From: Escherichia phage vb_EcoS_bov22_1
Length of the DNA stretch: 44,612 nucleotides
Reading direction: 5' to 3' (one strand)
Sequence record: NC_073084.1
The position numbers and the translations under genes were made by a program. The notes under the pieces were generated by a model that saw nothing but the letters and a program-made list of their open reading frames with translations, was not told the origin of the DNA and searched no databases. Of the stretch, positions 1-30,369 are shown piece after piece. How positions within the stretch are numbered: position 1 is the stretch's first letter; each line of letters starts with the position of its first letter.

Positions 1-2
1 AG

Positions 3-524
3 TTCGGGCAGCAGTCCGCAGCTATCGAGCAGAAGATGACGTCTTCGTTTAACCACGCTGGTGGTAGCGCCACTTACAGCCTTAAGGCTGGCGTGACGTA
101 TAACGGGACTTACTATGATGCGGGTATGCAGCTTTCCGTTGTGACGTCTGGCAACGCAGTTAAATCGCGTATTGCGTTCAAGGCGGACCAGTTCTACATC
201 ATGCACCCATCTAATGGGTCGCTTTCGTCCGCGTTTATCGTAGACGGCGGGCAGGTGTACATCGACACGGCACGTATCAAGAACGCGTCAATCAACTTTG
301 CGCAGATCACGGACACGCTGCGGTCGAATAACTTCGTTGCGGGGTCGTCAGGGTGGAACCTGCCTAAATCTGGTAACGCGGAATTGAACAACGTAACGGT
401 ACGCGGCAACTTGTTCGCTACTACGGGGAACTTCGGATTCTCCGGCGGGTCCGTTACGATCGACTCAACGGGTGTTAACGTGCCATTACCTGGCGGGGGC
501 AGGGTGAAAGTCGGGACGTGGTAA
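3..524 (+). CDS. C-terminal part of tail-tip host-specificity protein (lambda J-like); 5' end is outside the window and appears to continue from the window end
   Basis: Frame open from base 3 with no upstream stop; stop TAA 522-524; same frame as, and 8-nt overlap (agttcggg) with, the J-like ORF running off the window at 44612. Confidence 0.6.
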   Translation, partial: FGQQSAAIEQKMTSSFNHAGGSATYSLKAGVTYNGTYYDAGMQLSVVTSGNAVKSRIAFKADQFYIMHPSNGSLSSAFIVDGGQVYIDTARIKNASINFAQITDTLRSNNFVAGSSGWNLPKSGNAELNNVTVRGNLFATTGNFGFSGGSVTIDSTGVNVPLPGGGRVKVGTW

Positions 525-530
525 ATGCGA

Positions 531-554
531 AGGGGCCATATGGCCCCTTTTTTA
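531..554 (+). terminator. rho-independent terminator
   Basis: Hairpin aggggccatatggcccct followed by T-run, directly after the stop at 524. Confidence 0.6.
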
Positions 555-1526
555 ATACATGTTAGGGATGACGAGTAACGGGGTGGGTACGGTTATGTTG
601 CGGTTAGGCATCTGGAATTGCTGCCGTGAGTAGTTACCAATCACGCGATTTCGAGCCGAGCTAACCACGTTGCCTGCCATGCGTATCCCGTTCATTCTCA
701 CGTGGTTGTATCCGCTGTTGTTCTCAATAAGCGCGCCGGTATATGAAAGCTGTACGAGGCTGTTACCGATATTCTGACCACCAGTGCCGATATTAATAAC
801 GGAATTGAGAACAAACGGCTTATTCACGGTAGAGAACGTGACCTGCCCCTGGTTGTTCGTCATGGTTATACCGGTCCCCGGTGATGGCGGCGTGTTATTG
901 AAGATAACCAAATCCAGGTCCACTTCGGCCCCTACGTCGTCGATCCCGCCATAAGACGAATTGCGGACGATGATATTACTGCCATCAAATCCTACCGACA
1001 CGTTGCCATTATCCCAGCGCGCGAACGGGATACCGCCCACAGGCAAAGGCATACTACCGTTCACGTGCACGCGCTGCGCGTAGCGGCAGGTCATTAGCCG
1101 GGACACGTTGGAAATCGCGGTGAAGTCTGTCGAGTTCGCCACCAGCAAGCCCGCATTGCGTGACCCCACCGGCAGCACTTCCATAATTATCCCCGCCCAT
1201 TGAGGGAGGCCGCTGTAGGCGTTATACGCGTCCGCGCCTCGTAGAATAATTCCGCTATCCCCGTTGCGTTGTACCGACGTCACGTAGAACGGATCTGGAA
1301 GAACCAGCGTTTGGTCGAATACCTCAATCACTTCGACAGGGCGCGTGAGCGCAACGACAAGATCCGACCCAGGTGTTAGCGGGGTGTTAATGGTCAGCGT
1401 CTTGTCTGACTGGCAGCGTTGATCAAACGTAGTGCAGTATGACGGAGCGCGTAGACCGGCAGTTATCTCCATCACCGTCCTTCCGTCGTTGTAGTCTATA
1501 AGTATTCCAGCGCCCATAATTACCAC
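552..1526 (-). CDS. hypothetical Asn/Gly/Ser/Thr-rich protein (beta-rich; possible receptor-binding or surface-interacting protein)
   Basis: 324-aa ORF; GGGAG RBS 7 nt upstream of ATG at 1526; overlaps and is co-oriented with the upstream lipoprotein gene; composition resembles fibre/receptor-binding domains. Confidence 0.6.
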   Translation of the reverse strand: MVIMGAGILIDYNDGRTVMEITAGLRAPSYCTTFDQRCQSDKTLTINTPLTPGSDLVVALTRPVEVIEVFDQTLVLPDPFYVTSVQRNGDSGIILRGADAYNAYSGLPQWAGIIMEVLPVGSRNAGLLVANSTDFTAISNVSRLMTCRYAQRVHVNGSMPLPVGGIPFARWDNGNVSVGFDGSNIIVRNSSYGGIDDVGAEVDLDLVIFNNTPPSPGTGITMTNNQGQVTFSTVNKPFVLNSVINIGTGGQNIGNSLVQLSYTGALIENNSGYNHVRMNGIRMAGNVVSSARNRVIGNYSRQQFQMPNRNITVPTPLLVIPNMY

Positions 1527-1741
1527 TCCCGAGATTTAACTGATACCGTACCAGAGAAGTTGCCGTCGCTATCCGCGGACAGGCCGGTGAAGCGCATATC
1601 CACATCTCCGGCAGGCACTTTTTGCCCATCGACGTAGCGCAACATGCAGCTACCGTAAGCTACCGTAATGCAATCGCCGTTGTTACGTTCTACCGCACAG
1701 CCGGACAGAAGAACCGAACAAATCACAATTAATGTTTTCAT
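1520..1741 (-). CDS. small lipoprotein (candidate Cor/Llp-type superinfection-exclusion protein)
   Basis: ATG at 1741 preceded by GGGAG; N-terminus MKTLIVICSVLLSGC has a signal peptide and lipobox L-S-G-C; about 73 aa; adjacent to tail-fibre genes. Confidence 0.65.
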   Translation of the reverse strand: MKTLIVICSVLLSGCAVERNNGDCITVAYGSCMLRYVDGQKVPAGDVDMRFTGLSADSDGNFSGTVSVKSREW

Positions 1742-1821
1742 GTTATCATCTCCCATATTTGGTTGAGTTTTAGTATTGCACCGCTCAATCGAGAATGCAA
1801 CCAATCTATGAGGATTTAGCT

Positions 1822-3438
1822 ATGGCAGCGGGTACTTTATCCGTAACGAATAACAGCAAGGCGGTTGTAGGGGTAGGCACAACGTTTACCGCGTTTAAAG
1901 CTGGCGACTTCTTATCGCTGGTAGTGGGGCAAGTCCCTTACACTGTCGCTATTGCATCCGTAGAAAGCGACACGTCTCTTACGCTGGTGTTACCGTTCGA
2001 CGGACCAACGGCAACCGGCCTAGCCTGGGACGGCGTTAAGCGCGATACCATGTCATTGGCAACGATGGGCGTTACCGTACAGGCACAAAAAGCATTGCGC
2101 TTGATGATTGCAGATGAAAACAACTGGCGTGCAATCTTCGGCGACGCTGAAGAAATCACAGTGACGTTACCTAACGGGCAGGTTATGCAGGGCATGTCAT
2201 GGGGCTATCTGTCGCAGCTAATGAAGCAGATCGACCCTGTGGAGATGCGCAACCTGCAACAACAAGCAGCCGCATCGGAAGCAGCCGCGCAAGGATTTCG
2301 CAATGAGGCCGAAGGATTTCGCCATGAAGCCGAAGGATTCAAGGTGCAGAGCCTGGCAATCCTCAACAGCACGCAGGAGGTCCACGACGCCACCAGCACC
2401 ATCAAGGACCAGACGAACCAGATCAAGACGGATACGCAGGCCATCAAGGACCAGACGAACCAGATCAAGACGGATACTGGCGTTATTCGAGATCAGGCCA
2501 ATACAGCGAAGACGGACGCGCAAGCCGCCCGCGATGCCGCGCAGGGGTATCGGGATGAAGCCGAAGACTTCAAAAACGCGATCGACCCTACGCAATTCAT
2601 GAAGAAGTCGCAGAACCTGGCAGACGTCGCAGATAAATCGTCGGCACGCGCTAATCTTGGTCTGGGGTCTGTAGCTACGGAGAACACCGTACCCATCGGG
2701 AAAGGCGGCACTGCGGCGACAACGGCAGCGGCAGCACGCGCTAATCTTGGCGTTGGTGATGATAGTAACGTTAAACACGCAACATTACGTCTGAATGGTG
2801 GGGAGTCATTAGTATTCGATGACGTCGAAAGAAACGGCTTAGTTCTGTCTAACGTATCGTATGGGATTGACAGTTGGGTAGGCTTCACCATGCACAAATG
2901 GTACGCCGACTGGGTGCGCGCAGGCATTGTTCGCGCTGCTAACACTCAAATGTCGGACTACCGGATTCATACGTGGAAGAACGGTGTTTCCGAGGCGCTA
3001 TTCCGCTTCCTGCCGGACGGCAGGCTGATTCAGGGTAACAGCGGCAACCCTTCCGTAAATGAGTTTCAGAAAGCAGCGCTATCGGACCGCGACCTTAAAA
3101 AAGAAATCCAATACACTGACGGCGAGGAAAGCTACAACCGCGTTCGTCAATGGCTTCCGGCAATGTTCAAGTATAAGGAGTCTGACGTACAGCGATACGG
3201 CCTTATCGCACAGGACCTGGCAAGGATTGACCCAGAATATGTGCACTTGCTGCCGGGTTATGCCATTTATGAGGATATCAAGGGGGTGGACGAGGAAGGG
3301 AACGAAGTTGTAGTCGACCGAAAGGAGATCGGGTATACAGACGATGTGCTGTCGCTTGATAGTAACGTGTTGTTAATGGATCTGTGCGCCGCCTTCGTTC
3401 ACCTGTTGCGGAAAGTGGAGAAGCTAGAAGGTAAATAA
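1822..3438 (+). CDS. tail fibre protein with C-terminal intramolecular chaperone (peptidase S74-like) domain
   Basis: ATG 1822 with GAGGA RBS (alternative ATG 1795); internal coiled/collagen-like repeats (EAEGFR, IKDQTNQIKTDT); C-terminal SDRDLKKEI Ser-Lys motif typical of autoproteolytic chaperone domains. Confidence 0.75.
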   Translation: MAAGTLSVTNNSKAVVGVGTTFTAFKAGDFLSLVVGQVPYTVAIASVESDTSLTLVLPFDGPTATGLAWDGVKRDTMSLATMGVTVQAQKALRLMIADENNWRAIFGDAEEITVTLPNGQVMQGMSWGYLSQLMKQIDPVEMRNLQQQAAASEAAAQGFRNEAEGFRHEAEGFKVQSLAILNSTQEVHDATSTIKDQTNQIKTDTQAIKDQTNQIKTDTGVIRDQANTAKTDAQAARDAAQGYRDEAEDFKNAIDPTQFMKKSQNLADVADKSSARANLGLGSVATENTVPIGKGGTAATTAAAARANLGVGDDSNVKHATLRLNGGESLVFDDVERNGLVLSNVSYGIDSWVGFTMHKWYADWVRAGIVRAANTQMSDYRIHTWKNGVSEALFRFLPDGRLIQGNSGNPSVNEFQKAALSDRDLKKEIQYTDGEESYNRVRQWLPAMFKYKESDVQRYGLIAQDLARIDPEYVHLLPGYAIYEDIKGVDEEGNEVVVDRKEIGYTDDVLSLDSNVLLMDLCAAFVHLLRKVEKLEGK

Positions 3439-3443
3439 GGCGA

Positions 3444-3466
3444 AGGGGCCGTATGGCCCCTTTTTT
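3444..3466 (+). terminator. rho-independent terminator
   Basis: Hairpin aggggccgtatggcccct plus T6, right after the tail-fibre stop; near-identical to hairpins at 531 and 29161. Confidence 0.6.
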
Positions 3467-4040
3467 AGTTTGAGTTTTCCCAGTCCATTTTGCGCCGAAC
3501 CAGCGGGCTTTCGTAATATTCCTTCCCCTCCACTTCCACTAAGGGCCAGTCGTTAACAATCACGTACGGTTCCGCAATATCCTCAATCACGCCGTGCGCG
3601 CCATGTTGTCCGAACGATACGCCCACCAGAATAACACCGGCAACGCGACGGGTCAGATATTCGCGAGCGCAACGGGCCTCGACCAGTCCCCGACGTATGC
3701 CGCTGGTGGCCTTAACCTCGTAGGTCCAGACGGCATCGATCACATGCTCGCGGAAGTCGGGGCCGGATTTAACCTTGCGCTTGCCGACCATGATAATATC
3801 GCCGCGGTCAATGGTGTTGGCGCTAAACAGGCCGGTACGCATAAGCAAACCTTGCGGGATGCAACTACGCCCGCCCGCCTGCCCCTCAAGGTACATTCCT
3901 GCAAACATTTCGCCCAACACACCGACCAGTCGGCTTTGCTTGCACGCGTCAGACTTTAAGCGCCATTGATCAAACTCGATGCTTGCTATCATTGCCGCCA
4001 GGTGGAATTGTTTACCTGATATTTCATATTCGCCGTACAT
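3465..4040 (-). CDS. hypothetical protein (possible PD-(D/E)xK-type nuclease fold)
   Basis: 191-aa ORF; GAGGA RBS 8 nt upstream of ATG 4040; GDIIMVG ... EVK pattern loosely fits a D ... ExK nuclease core. Confidence 0.5.
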   Translation of the reverse strand: MYGEYEISGKQFHLAAMIASIEFDQWRLKSDACKQSRLVGVLGEMFAGMYLEGQAGGRSCIPQGLLMRTGLFSANTIDRGDIIMVGKRKVKSGPDFREHVIDAVWTYEVKATSGIRRGLVEARCAREYLTRRVAGVILVGVSFGQHGAHGVIEDIAEPYVIVNDWPLVEVEGKEYYESPLVRRKMDWENSN

Positions 4041-4604: not shown

Positions 4605-4666
4605 GATGTTTTCCTTTTTAGTGGAGGCGGTATTGCCCCCGACGTGATTAAGATACTGCAACCAAC

Positions 4667-5137
4667 CTATTGGTTGCAAGTAAATTTTGCAACGTTTATT
4701 GCGTAAATTTTCGGGACTAAATCGCTGCACGCCCGACGAATTGCCGCGATGTTCTTCGGGCAGTCTTCAATGATGACCAGTTCCGATACGTCCGCATAGC
4801 AGACCATTTTGAACACAGCGTACGCTTTAAACTCTGGCGGCGGGGTGTCGTCCAGCATGTGGCGCATGAACAACCGGCCTCTAGGGAATACTTCCAATTG
4901 CTCGGCTGTGGTGTCCCAGCATTCTCGCTGCCGGTTGGTCAGATACGCGATCTCGAAGCCTTGCTCTTTGTACATGGTCAGCAGCGGCAGCATATCCATG
5001 TTCAGATCTTCGCGTATATGCGCTTTGTGCCACTTCGCCCAAAAGGTGGATTTTGTTTTTATGCCCGGAACCAGGTCGGCACGCGCATCGCTTGAACCGT
5101 TAATAACGCCATCCAAATCGCAAATCAGTAATTTCAT
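4667..5137 (-). CDS. HAD-superfamily phosphatase (deoxyribonucleotidase or polynucleotide 3'-phosphatase-like)
   Basis: N-terminal LICDLDGV (DxDx[TV] HAD motif I); GAGGAG RBS 5 nt upstream of ATG 5137. Confidence 0.65.
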   Translation of the reverse strand: MKLLICDLDGVINGSSDARADLVPGIKTKSTFWAKWHKAHIREDLNMDMLPLLTMYKEQGFEIAYLTNRQRECWDTTAEQLEVFPRGRLFMRHMLDDTPPPEFKAYAVFKMVCYADVSELVIIEDCPKNIAAIRRACSDLVPKIYAINVAKFTCNQ

Positions 5138-6559: not shown

Positions 6560-6588
6560 AATATAATGCAACCAATATTATTATGCAA
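6560..6588 (-). promoter_or_regulatory. sigma70-like promoter (minus strand) overlapping two TTGGTTGCA motifs
   Basis: Minus strand reads TTGCAT-17 nt-TATATT; -35 lies inside the repeated motif. Confidence 0.4.
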
Positions 6589-6593
6589 CCAAT

Positions 6594-6917
6594 TTACGAA
6601 TAAAAATTTGGGTCACGTGCGACGTCTACCAGGTAAAGGTTGCTTATGCGGTTGCCGTAGTGCCCTGGTGTGCGCTGGCGGCACACAACGGCGTAGCCAG
6701 GAGGGATTGTATTTCCGGTTTCAATAATCCACGCCACACGCGCGCCCGATAGCGTCTTGCCGTTGCATTCGATACGTGTTCCGCCATCGGCAGTGTTAAG
6801 GTTGCCAATCTTGCAGCCTGTGGACTTCAGGCGGATGACGCCAGTCTTACTGTCGTAGGAAAAAAGCTGATTGGTCATTGCCACTGAAAAGTCGATGGCG
6901 TCGAATGTAGTATTCAT
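6594..6917 (-). CDS. hypothetical protein (possible degenerate HNH-type nuclease)
   Basis: 107 aa; GAGGAA RBS upstream of ATG 6917; PGHYGNRISNL loosely resembles the HNH core. Confidence 0.45.
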   Translation of the reverse strand: MNTTFDAIDFSVAMTNQLFSYDSKTGVIRLKSTGCKIGNLNTADGGTRIECNGKTLSGARVAWIIETGNTIPPGYAVVCRQRTPGHYGNRISNLYLVDVARDPNFYS

Positions 6918-15851: not shown

Positions 15852-16088
15852 GGTATATCTCCGATTGGTTAAGTTTAGGTGTCGGCAGTTAACTTCGTCG
15901 GTGGCCTTAACATATTGCCAGGTTACGCGTTCTCCCGTTCGGGTAGTGGACCTGGTTATATAATCACGGTTGGGAATCCTGACACTTCGATCCGGCCCCT
16001 GCGTTGCCCCTCTCCAGTTTGCGTCCTGCATCCTGTCGACGGGGTGAATAATAGATTGGTTGCAGGATGGGTGTCAACAACTAATTTC

Positions 16089-19126: not shown

Positions 19127-19282
19127 AAATCCGGGGATTGCAAAACACACGGCAGCATGATGCGAAGTGCGGTCGCGGATGAACTAGGCAACCAATGCTA
19201 GTAGCATTATGCTGAGTGAAAAATGCGGTTTGCAGTTGCAGCAGATAGCGATCAACTTTTTCATGCGCGTTATTAATATTGG

Positions 19283-19311
19283 TTGCATCCGCCCAGGCAC
19301 CCTGCTATATT
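19283..19311 (+). promoter_or_regulatory. sigma70-like promoter with paired TTGGTTGCA motifs
   Basis: TTGCAT-17 nt-TATATT, then GGTTGCACACCAACAGGAGG and ATG 19339; the 22-mer TATATTGGTTGCACACCAACAG recurs on the minus strand at 30323-30344. Confidence 0.45.
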
Positions 19312-19338
19312 GGTTGCACACCAACAGGAGGGCGGAAC

Positions 19339-20269: not shown

Positions 20270-20820
20270 AATTACTATTCCGCCGTAAGCACGATGGCCG
20301 CATCCTGAAGCCGATCCAGACCCTTGAGGCGCACGTCCGTTTGCACCACGAAGCAAGCGATCGCGTCTGGTGGGCGAAGAAAGACAAGCTGCCGGAAAAC
20401 TTCGACGTACTCACACACGATATTGCGCGCGGCGATGTGCTGCGTGACCTTCGCGACGGGCAATTGTGGGTTGTGGAGCACACCTCCCAGCTCGGCTTGC
20501 GGTTGAAGTCCGGTATCTTGTTGAAGGGGATGACGTACTTCGGCCTCGTAAATTACGAGCGAGTGGGTCGCAAATACAGCCTTCGGGACCGCCAGCCTCA
20601 TGAGCGCGTGGAGTTCCGCAAGTCGCAGCCCGCGTATGCCACTTACGACGCGAGCAAAGTGATGGAGCCGATCCGCCAGGCCACGCGTGAGAGAGTCAAT
20701 CGCTTTGATGCCGTGACGAATGCACAGCGCCATGCGCAGGAATACGGCGTTGGATTCATCCGTGTCGAACCAGACGGCAGCATGAAGGCCATCGACCCGC
20801 GCTCGGTGATTCTGAAATGA
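20266..20820 (+). CDS. hypothetical protein
   Basis: 184 aa; ATG overlaps the upstream stop. Confidence 0.6.
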   Translation: MKLLFRRKHDGRILKPIQTLEAHVRLHHEASDRVWWAKKDKLPENFDVLTHDIARGDVLRDLRDGQLWVVEHTSQLGLRLKSGILLKGMTYFGLVNYERVGRKYSLRDRQPHERVEFRKSQPAYATYDASKVMEPIRQATRERVNRFDAVTNAQRHAQEYGVGFIRVEPDGSMKAIDPRSVILK

Positions 20821-21815: not shown

Positions 21816-22293
21816 CAACGGTCTGAGATTTACGGCAGCATGGGAGCAATTCAGCCCAGTGCCGTATTTCGCGACTAAGAAAGAGCAGGCCCGCGGCCTG
21901 TATACCTGGGGCTATGGTCACACCGGCACTAATCCGCCGCGGAGCATTACCCGTGCGGAGGCACTGGAGCTACTCAAGCGCGATGTGGTGTATGCCGAGA
22001 ACTGGGTGAACAAGTACGCGCATAAGAGCATTAACCAGGCGCAATTCGACGCGCTGGTGGACCTGGTTATCAATGCAGGTCAAGGTCCGATCGTACCGGA
22101 TGACGTCGCGAATGATTTCGATGATGCGGTCCGCCTGGGCGACTGGGCTAAGGTACGTGCTACTCTGCCGCAGTTCCGCAAGCAAGGTGGCGAAGTGCTT
22201 AAGGGTCTGGTGCGCCGTGCAATCGGCAGACAGGCGTTGTTTGATGGTAAGCAGTGGGACGTTGCCGAGAAAATCGGGCGTAACGCAGCATAA
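21802..22293 (+). CDS. endolysin (lysozyme, glycoside hydrolase family 24-like)
   Basis: AAWEQF ... GLYTWGYGHTG region resembles the T4-lysozyme-type catalytic core; directly follows the holin-like genes. Confidence 0.75.
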   Translation: MRFSDNGLRFTAAWEQFSPVPYFATKKEQARGLYTWGYGHTGTNPPRSITRAEALELLKRDVVYAENWVNKYAHKSINQAQFDALVDLVINAGQGPIVPDDVANDFDDAVRLGDWAKVRATLPQFRKQGGEVLKGLVRRAIGRQALFDGKQWDVAEKIGRNAA

Positions 22294-22510: not shown

Positions 22511-22571
22511 GCTTGACTCGCAACCAACACAGGGGCCATACTGCAACCAATCAACTGGAGGAGTAATCAAG

Positions 22572-30304: not shown

Positions 30305-30339
30305 TTTGTTTTCCTTCATATCTCTGTTGGTGTGCAACC

Positions 30340-30369
30340 AATATACTGCAACCAACATCCGCAATGCAA
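30340..30369 (-). promoter_or_regulatory. sigma70-like promoter (minus strand) for the reverse cassette
   Basis: Minus strand TTGCAT-18 nt-TATATTGGTTGCACACCAACAG, matching the promoter at 19283. Confidence 0.4.

What the first reader, a model, noticed from the sequence alone, without database searches (positions are those of the whole stretch)
552..1741. Early-type lipoprotein gene beside the tail-fibre genes: candidate receptor-blocking superinfection exclusion
The ORF 1520-1741 encodes an ~73-aa product with a signal peptide and lipobox (LLSGC). It is transcribed divergently from the side tail-fibre gene, from a motif-containing promoter region, and is coupled to a 324-aa Asn/Gly-rich beta-type protein (552-1526). 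In T5 (Llp) and phi80/T1-type phages (Cor), a small lipoprotein encoded next to receptor-binding genes inactivates the outer-membrane receptor. The arrangement here matches that logic. The 324-aa partner could be a receptor-binding or accessory protein.
Basis: partly seen in the sequence, partly recalled or inferred. Interest (0 to 1): 0.6.

Follow-up and report, generated by a model that had tools for sequence, protein, structure and literature searches.

The report
LptD receptor-binding and exclusion-lipoprotein gene pair

Summary
The window is Escherichia phage vb_EcoS_bov11C2 (Dhillonvirus), 100% identical over 1-3500. Both ORFs are real.

- **Lipoprotein, 1520-1741(-), 73 aa.** It has a signal peptide, the lipobox LLSG|C and Ala at +2. 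It belongs to Pfam PF24052 (E 9e-21). It is 96% identical to the Oekolampad/Bas18 exclusion lipoprotein. It is 36-38% identical to Rtp45, whose cryo-EM complex with LptDE is solved (PDB 9RPS). The Rtp45 Cys30-Cys38 pair is conserved.
- **Partner ORF.** Its true start is ATG 1517, giving 321 aa. It belongs to DUF6453 and is 85% identical to the Oekolampad receptor-binding protein solved on open LptDE (9RPT, E 2e-181).
- **Transcription unit.** The two genes sit 2 nt apart, between gpJ and the lateral tail-fibre gene. A sigma-70-like promoter carrying a recurrent phage motif lies upstream, and a bidirectional terminator lies downstream.

The receptor is LptD, not FhuA. The lipoprotein does not belong to the Cor family by sequence and matched no T5 Llp family in the libraries scanned. 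"Early" timing is not shown.

BASEL 2021/2025 and Dunbar et al. (PNAS 2025) already describe this module. I found no in vivo exclusion assay for this family in the papers I read.

The parts
1..524 (+). 3' end of the gpJ-like central tail-fibre / tail-tip gene (cut by the window start). The receptor-binding protein is thought to dock on this protein.
   Evidence: PF09327 Phage_Tail_Tip E 2.6e-38 and phrog_31 'central tail fiber J'. GenBank annotates it as 'tail tip host specificity protein J'.
530..549 (.). Perfectly palindromic G+C-rich hairpin, AAGGGGCCATATGGCCCCTT. On the + strand a T-run follows it, making it the terminator for J. On the - strand it ends the lipoprotein-RBP transcript, but with a poorer T-run.
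   Evidence: RNA fold gives -22.2 kcal/mol (z -4.8) on + and -16.3 kcal/mol (z -3.4) on -. The only other copy in the window is at 3443-3462. The pattern scanner did not list it.
552..1517 (-). Receptor-binding protein of the central tail fibre, 321 aa, LptD-specific type (DUF6453).
   Evidence: PF20051 E 2e-117. PDB 9rpt_C 'Tail fiber protein' E 2e-181. 85.0% identical to Bas18 RBP, 88.5% to Bas83, 60% to Bas20 and 33% to Rtp44. The Gln299 contact residue context SRQQFQMP is identical.
1520..1741 (-). Superinfection-exclusion lipoprotein precursor, 73 aa. Signal peptide residues 1-14, lipobox LLSG|C (Cys15), Ala at +2, and a Cys24/Cys32 pair.
   Evidence: PF24052 E 8.7e-21 and phrog_4281 E 2e-32. 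PDB 9rps_D (Rtp45) E 4.3e-8. 95.9% identical to bas18_0026, 97.3% to Bas83 and 35.5% to Rtp45. C15, C24 and C32 are invariant.
1772..1807 (-). Putative sigma-70-type promoter of the lipoprotein-RBP operon. The motif AGATTGGTTGCA (1807-1796) ends in a -35-like TTGCAT (1800-1795). A 17-nt spacer ending in TGc follows, then a -10-like AATACT (1777-1772).
   Evidence: The motif occurs 9 times against 0.15 expected. Contexts at other sites show TTGCAT-N17/18-TATATT. The region is conserved in Bas18 and Bas83. The consensus scanner did not call it, so activity and timing are inferred.
1822..3438 (+). Divergently transcribed lateral (side) tail-fibre gene with a C-terminal intramolecular chaperone domain.
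   Evidence: phrog_1980 E 4.8e-130 and PF13884 Peptidase_S74 E 2.8e-9. The Bas18 orthologue is annotated 'lateral tail fiber protein'.
3443..3462 (.). Second copy of the palindromic terminator hairpin (AAGGGGCCGTATGGCCCCTT). It closes the host-range block.

Best explanation
The two genes form the LptD-type host-recognition and self-protection cassette of a Dhillonvirus.

**Expression (inferred).** One leftward transcript starts at a sigma-70-like promoter in the 80-bp spacer shared with the lateral tail-fibre gene and ends at the hairpin shared with gpJ. It encodes first the 73-aa lipoprotein and, 2 nt later, the 321-aa receptor-binding protein (RBP).

**RBP (inferred from the solved homologue).** The RBP is mounted on the tip of the J-like central fibre. 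[quoted passage not shown]

**Lipoprotein (inferred).** It is exported by Sec, lipidated at Cys15 and cleaved by signal peptidase II. Because residue +2 is Ala rather than Asp, Lol sends it to the inner leaflet of the outer membrane. By analogy with Rtp45, it binds LptD from the periplasmic side, between LptE and LptM, and pushes a hairpin up the barrel lumen. This displaces extracellular loop 4 (and 5), so the RBP of this phage and of other LptD-dependent phages can no longer dock.

**Benefit (inferred).** Secondary infection is excluded, and progeny are not wasted on receptor in lysed-cell debris.

**What is shown here.** Gene structure, lipobox, homology and synteny.
For: **Identity of the phage.** The window is 100% identical to Dhillonvirus bov11C2.

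**RBP.**
- DUF6453, E 2e-117.
- E 2e-181 against PDB 9rpt_C; 85% identical in global alignment.
- That chain is the Oekolampad RBP bound to LptDE (PMC12685063).
- Oekolampad's LptD dependence was shown genetically (PMC8594841; LptD point mutants).

**Lipoprotein.**
- PF24052, E 8.7e-21. Rtp45 and bas18_0026 hit the same family.
- PDB 9rps_D (Rtp45), E 4.3e-8.
- 96% identical to SE_Oeko. The lipid Cys and the two Cys that align with the Rtp45 Cys30-Cys38 disulphide are invariant.

**Synteny.** The order J, RBP, lipoprotein, with the same orientation and tight coupling, is shared with Bas18, Bas83 and Rtp.

**Literature.** Closely related Bas83-85 are predicted to be LptD-specific from this same locus (PMC11990801; bioRxiv 2026.04.02.716166).
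Against: - In the papers I read, no family member has an in vivo exclusion phenotype reported. The evidence for Rtp45 is a co-purified cryo-EM complex.
- Expression of SE_Oeko, which is 96% identical to this protein, failed.
- Identity to Rtp45 is only 36-38%, with a 5-residue insertion in the C-terminal half, so the lumen hairpin may differ.
- The RBP differs from RBP_Oeko at 48 of 321 positions, with clusters at 237-247 and 284-289. LptD binding by this allele is not itself shown.
- The promoter is a weak consensus match that the scanner did not call.
- Single-sequence structure models were uninformative.
Confidence: 0.88

Rival explanations
1. The lipoprotein is a Cor- or Llp-type protein that inactivates FhuA (the T1/phi80/T5 logic as literally proposed), and the phage uses FhuA.
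For: Some Dhillonviruses do use FhuA (PMC10373560). phrog_1119 'Cor' gives a weak hit, E 0.004. BLASTP against T1 Cor gives E 0.01.
Against: - The Cor hits cover essentially only the signal peptide and lipobox (residues 1-30).
- T1 Cor scores 17.7 bits on PF24052, below the 27-bit cut-off.
- The adjacent RBP is the LptD type at 85% identity to a solved LptDE complex, not a FhuA-type allele.
- The locus allele predicts the receptor 'without exception' in BASEL.
Confidence: 0.03
2. The lipoprotein is an accessory or assembly factor for the RBP (for example a chaperone or specificity co-determinant) rather than an exclusion factor. Tight coupling would then reflect a need for co-production.
For: The lipoprotein lies upstream of the RBP and 2 nt from it. 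[quoted passage not shown] Bas20 has the RBP but no adjacent lipoprotein, so the RBP does not always travel with one.
Against: - A secreted, lipid-anchored periplasmic protein is in the wrong compartment to chaperone a cytoplasmically assembled tail protein.
- RBP_Oeko was expressed and bound LptDE without the lipoprotein.
- Rtp45 binds LptDE directly.
- In Kuravirus genomes the homologous lipoprotein is unlinked from the DUF6453 protein.
Confidence: 0.04
3. The lipoprotein is the outer-membrane spanin component of the lysis system.
For: It is a small phage-encoded outer-membrane lipoprotein, the same size class as o-spanins.
Against: - It lies about 20 kb from the lysin gene, which is at window 21859-22293.
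- No i-spanin partner overlaps it.
- It belongs to PF24052 together with Rtp45.
- Neither Pfam nor PHROGs gave a spanin hit.
Confidence: 0.02

Closest known systems
Oekolampad (Bas18) RBP_Oeko plus SE_Oeko (bas18_0025/0026), Dhillonvirus; PDB 9RPT/9RPW/9RQI
   Same: Same genus and same locus between gpJ and the lateral fibre, with the same orientation and 2-nt coupling. The RBP is 85% identical and the lipoprotein 96% identical. The promoter spacer with the ATTGGTTGCA motif is conserved.
   Different: There are 48 substitutions in the RBP, clustered at 237-247 and 284-289, and 3 in the lipoprotein (one of them in the mature part). The window allele belongs to a BF9 / 101114BS4 subgroup at 98% identity. 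No experiments exist on this phage.
Rtp44 / Rtp45 of phage Rtp (Drexlerviridae, Rtpvirus); PDB 9RPS
   Same: Same two Pfam families (PF20051, PF24052). The gene order is the same, lipoprotein then RBP, antisense to J. The lipobox and the Cys30-Cys38-equivalent pair are conserved.
   Different: Only 33% (RBP) and 36-38% (lipoprotein) identical. Rtp45 lacks the 5-residue DSDGN segment and has a longer signal peptide. Rtp belongs to a different phage family and the downstream neighbours differ.
T5 Llp (blocks FhuA; van den Berg et al. 2022, cited)
   Same: A small periplasm-facing outer-membrane lipoprotein, encoded beside the RBP gene, that makes the phage's own receptor unable to bind the RBP. 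The same dual benefit applies: exclusion and protection of progeny.
   Different: No sequence relationship was detected. The target is a TonB-dependent transporter. Llp acts by long-range 'reverse' allostery, whereas Rtp45 physically displaces LptD loops.
Cor of T1 / phi80 / N15 (blocks FhuA)
   Same: A lipoprotein of similar size near the tail-fibre genes, in the same functional class.
   Different: Only sub-threshold similarity, confined mainly to the signal peptide. In T1, cor lies after two other genes downstream of J and is not coupled to an RBP gene.

Membership tests
LptD-specific RBP family of small siphophages (DUF6453 / PF20051; RBP_Oeko, Rtp44) | Full-length sequence homology above the curated threshold | tested here: met
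   PF20051 at 392 bits against a cut-off of 25. 9rpt_C E 2e-181. 85% identical to Bas18 and 33% to Rtp44. Rtp44 and the Bas20 RBP hit the same family.
LptD-specific RBP family of small siphophages (DUF6453 / PF20051; RBP_Oeko, Rtp44) | Encoded in the variable locus directly downstream of the gpJ homologue | tested here: met
   J ends at 524 and the RBP occupies 552-1517 on the opposite strand, the same layout as in Bas18, Bas83, Bas20 and Rtp.
LptD-specific RBP family of small siphophages (DUF6453 / PF20051; RBP_Oeko, Rtp44) | Physical binding to LptDE, and LptD-dependent infection | not testable with these tools
   This is shown only for Oekolampad (cryo-EM, LptD mutants). The one named contact residue, Gln299, and its context are conserved here.
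Rtp45-type exclusion lipoprotein (PF24052 Phage_lipoprotein) | Sequence homology above the curated threshold | tested here: met
   74.1 bits against a cut-off of 27. Rtp45 scores 128 bits and SE_Oeko 76 bits on the same model. 9rps_D E 4.3e-8.
Rtp45-type exclusion lipoprotein (PF24052 Phage_lipoprotein) | Signal peptide with lipobox, and a +2 residue compatible with outer-membrane sorting | tested here: met
   L-S-G-C at residues 12-15, then Ala16. The sorting rule (Asp at +2 means inner-membrane retention) is established knowledge and was not tested here.
Rtp45-type exclusion lipoprotein (PF24052 Phage_lipoprotein) | Conserved cysteine pair equivalent to the Rtp45 Cys30-Cys38 disulphide | tested here: met
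   C24 and C32 are invariant columns in alignment A1, aligned with Rtp45 C30 and C38. The disulphide is described.
Rtp45-type exclusion lipoprotein (PF24052 Phage_lipoprotein) | Binds periplasmic LptDE and blocks RBP binding or infection | not testable with these tools
   There is structural evidence for Rtp45 only. SE_Oeko could not be expressed.
Cor family (T1, phi80, N15) | Sequence homology of the mature protein | tested here: not met
   phrog_1119 E 0.004, covering residues 1-30 only. BLASTP against T1 Cor gives 17 bits, E 0.01. T1 Cor falls below the PF24052 cut-off.
T5 Llp family | Sequence homology | tested here: inconclusive
   No Llp-named family appeared in Pfam at E<=1 or in PHROGs at E<=0.01. 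I did not compare directly with the T5 Llp sequence, and I did not check that these libraries contain an Llp model.

The most novel reading that the evidence does not exclude
The lipoprotein may also throttle or re-gate the essential LPS translocon during infection, in addition to blocking RBP docking. Rtp45 threads a hairpin up the LptD lumen and locks EL4, and the 96%-identical SE_Oeko could not be expressed in E. coli. If so, it would be a host-takeover or envelope-weakening factor as well as an exclusion factor, and a natural peptide lead for LptD inhibition. A related reading is cross-family exclusion: the same lipoprotein family occurs in Kuravirus podophages, so this protein could exclude phages with quite different virions.
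Probability: 0.12. Interest if true: 0.55.

Novelty: already known. Interest (0 to 1): 0.15.

Why it matters
For this phage the result gives a confident in-silico receptor call (LptD). It also renames two genes deposited as 'hypothetical protein' and 'lipoprotein'. More generally, LptD is essential and conserved, so RBP/exclusion pairs aimed at it are relevant to phage-cocktail design (cross-exclusion among LptD phages) and to LptD inhibitor ideas. That case has already been made in the literature with the Oekolampad and Rtp proteins. The only untested gap that touches this locus is the in vivo exclusion phenotype of the lipoprotein and its expression timing.

Tried and rejected
- **Structure prediction.** Single-sequence AlphaFold2 gave pLDDT 29.5 for the RBP and 61.4 for the lipoprotein, with the signal peptide modelled as a strand. 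Both models are unusable, so I ran no fold search. The RBP shares 85% identity with a solved chain, which makes a model unnecessary for it.\n- **Defence and naming libraries.** PADLOC and NCBIfam gave no hits for either protein.\n- **Promoter and terminator scanner.** The consensus scanner found neither the leftward promoter nor the 530-549 hairpin. I read both by hand and supported them with folding and motif statistics.\n- **Accession guesses.** My guesses for Oekolampad returned Bas20 (useful) and Bas39 (irrelevant). I then located Oekolampad by searching with the PDB chain sequence.\n- **Rejected readings.** I considered Cor/FhuA, spanin and RBP-chaperone readings and rejected them (see rival explanations).\n- **Not run.** I did not run the large homologue searches (search for homologous proteins, the search of protein representatives), because the phage database and PDB hits already settled identity.

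Full report
**Identity of the window.** Bases 1-3500 are 100% identical to Escherichia phage vb_EcoS_bov11C2 (MT884012.2; genus Dhillonvirus; bovine faeces, Hungary) and to three sister isolates. About 160 further records match at 80-94%, nearly all of them Dhillonviruses. Window base 1 corresponds to record base 20595.

**The observation.**
- The 73-aa ORF at 1520-1741(-) reads MKTLIVICSVLLSGCAVERNN... It has Lys2, a hydrophobic core, a lipobox L-S-G-C with Cys15, and Ala at +2.
- A GGGAGA ribosome-binding site lies 7 nt before the ATG.
- The neighbouring ORF exists as a 324-aa GTG ORF (552-1526). ATG 1517 is the better start: GGGAG lies 8 nt upstream, GenBank uses it, and the solved homologue begins MGAGIL.
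- The lipoprotein's TAA (1522-1520) and that ATG are 2 nt apart.
- The 321-aa protein is 10.3% Gly, 10.3% Val and 9.7% Asn.
- The gene to the right (1822-3438 +) is the lateral tail fibre (phrog_1980 E 5e-130; Peptidase_S74 chaperone domain). It is divergent across 80 bp.
- The gene to the left is the 3' end of gpJ (PF09327).

The description is correct apart from the three extra codons.

**What the two proteins are.**

The 321-aa protein belongs to DUF6453/PF20051 (E 2e-117). It matches PDB chain 9rpt_C, 'Tail fiber protein', at E 2e-181 over its whole length. That chain is encoded 100% by phage Oekolampad/Bas18, gene bas18_0025. Dunbar et al. (PNAS 2025, PMC12685063; preprint 10.1101/2025.07.07.663478) solved it by cryo-EM. 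It is inserted about 1700 A2 deep into the extracellular side of an open state of Shigella LptDE. Global identity to the window protein is 85.0% (48 substitutions), with 88.5% to Bas83, 60% to Bas20 and 33% to Rtp44. The one contact residue named in the text I read, Gln299, sits in an identical SRQQFQMP context.

The lipoprotein belongs to PF24052 'Phage_lipoprotein' (E 8.7e-21) and phrog_4281. It matches PDB 9rps_D, 'Phage lipoprotein', at E 4.3e-8. That chain is Rtp45, solved bound to LptDE-LptM. The lipoprotein is 95.9% identical to bas18_0026 (SE_Oeko), 97.3% to the Bas83 orthologue and 35.5% to Rtp45 (39% over the mature parts). The lipid cysteine and two further cysteines (C24, C32) are invariant. 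They align with Rtp45 C20, C30 and C38, and C30-C38 is the disulphide seen in the structure. Rtp45 and SE_Oeko hit the same Pfam model, and Rtp44 and the Bas20 RBP hit DUF6453.

**Context in the literature.**
- BASEL 2021 (PMC8594841) showed that small siphoviruses, Dhillonvirus included, carry 'bona fide RBP loci' with cognate superinfection-exclusion genes directly downstream of gpJ. The locus alleles match receptor specificity without exception. Oekolampad's receptor was identified as LptD from resistant mutants.
- BASEL 2025 predicts LptD for Bas83-85 from the same locus.
- A 2026 preprint confirms the locus-receptor correlation over 255 phages.

The module in the window is therefore an orthologue of a described module.

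**Mechanism.**

Shown here:
- The gene pair, its coupling, the lipobox, the conserved cysteines, homology and synteny.

Inferred from Rtp45:
- After Sec export, lipidation and Lol sorting (Ala at +2), the lipoprotein sits in the inner leaflet of the outer membrane.
- It binds LptD near strands beta5-8, between LptE and LptM.
- It sends a hairpin up the lumen and displaces extracellular loop 4 by up to 20 A.
- The resulting conformation clashes with RBP binding. This is a steric mechanism, unlike the long-range allostery of T5 Llp on FhuA.

The likely benefits are exclusion of other LptD phages and protection of progeny from receptor in debris.

**Transcription.**

The hairpin AAGGGGCCATATGGCCCCTT (530-549) folds strongly on both strands. 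It would end both the J transcript and the leftward lipoprotein-RBP transcript.

In the spacer, the motif AGATTGGTTGCA (1807-1796 on the - strand) supplies a -35-like TTGCAT. A 17-nt spacer ending in TGc follows, then AATACT.

The motif occurs 9 times in the window, against 0.15 expected. At several other sites it sits in clear TTGCAT-N17/18-TATATT arrangements just upstream of gene starts in the same orientation. The only copy inside the structural-gene half of the genome (30333-) points to the small leftward two-gene insert there, and none is oriented to drive the rightward structural operon. The spacer is conserved in Bas18 and Bas83.

This fits early or constitutive expression but does not prove it.

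**Family membership versus analogy.** The protein works like Llp and Cor but is not a sequence member of the Cor family. The PHROG Cor hit (E 0.004) covers residues 1-30 only. BLASTP against T1 Cor gives 17 bits. T1 Cor falls below the PF24052 cut-off. No Llp family was hit, although I did not compare directly with the T5 Llp sequence.

**Caveats.**
- In the papers I could read, no in vivo exclusion assay is reported for Rtp45 or SE_Oeko, and SE_Oeko expression failed.
- The window RBP allele is 15% diverged from the solved one.
- Single-sequence structure predictions were useless.

**Verdict.** The feature is already known, so interest is low.

Noticed in passing
window 1796-1807(-), 4657-4668(-), 6567-6578(-), 6584-6595(-), 16053-16064(+), 19276-19287(+), 19307-19318(+), 22542-22553(-), 30333-30344(-): A recurrent motif AGATTGGTTGCA (core ATTGGTTGCA) has 9 copies against 0.15 expected. 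It usually points toward the next gene start and often occurs in pairs. It overlaps sigma-70-like elements: TTGCAT as the -35, and TATATT of the next copy as the -10. At 4657 two copies form a perfect palindrome, TGCAACCAAT-AG-GTTGGTTGCA, which suggests an operator for a dimeric regulator as well as a promoter element. The only copy in the structural-gene half (30333-) points to the small leftward two-gene insert; none is oriented to drive the rightward structural operon.
   Followed up: partly
window 530-549 and 3443-3462: Two near-identical palindromic terminator hairpins, AAGGGGCC(A/G)TATGGCCCCTT, are the only copies in the genome. They bracket the 2.9-kb block holding the RBP, the exclusion lipoprotein and the lateral tail fibre. 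They could serve as recombination boundaries for swapping the host-range cassette.
   Followed up: partly
L009:3968-4249 (phage SU10) and L010:2659-3690 (phage XT73): Kuravirus podophages (about 75 kb) encode both families, but unlinked. A PF24052 lipoprotein (E 2.6e-36) sits inside a run of small early-looking genes. A 343-aa DUF6453 protein (E 4e-26) lies directly after two tail-fibre genes. The one indexed paper holding both 'Kuravirus' and 'LptD' (BASEL 2025) uses LptD for Dhillonvirus, not Kuravirus. These phages may use LptD as their terminal receptor.
   Followed up: partly
L003:3590-4671 (FritzHoffmann/Bas20, Nonagvirus): This LptD-dependent phage has an RBP homologue at 60% identity. 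Only 116 bp separate it from the lateral fibre gene, and there is no lipoprotein homologue in the 15-kb stretch examined. The RBP can therefore travel without the exclusion gene.
   Followed up: partly
window 552-1741 compared with Bas18 and Bas83 (L005, L002): Within Dhillonvirus the exclusion lipoprotein is far more conserved (96-97% identity; one substitution in the mature part against Bas18) than the co-transcribed RBP (85-88%; substitutions cluster at residues 237-247 and 284-289). This fits a conserved periplasmic target face and a diversifying extracellular interface.
   Followed up: partly
phage database hits: Records labelled Campylobacter, Acinetobacter, Sodalis and Vibrio phages carry near-identical or related copies of this E. 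coli-type module. One example is 'Acinetobacter phage NJ01', with an RBP 89% identical. Some host labels may be wrong or reflect contaminants.
   Followed up: no
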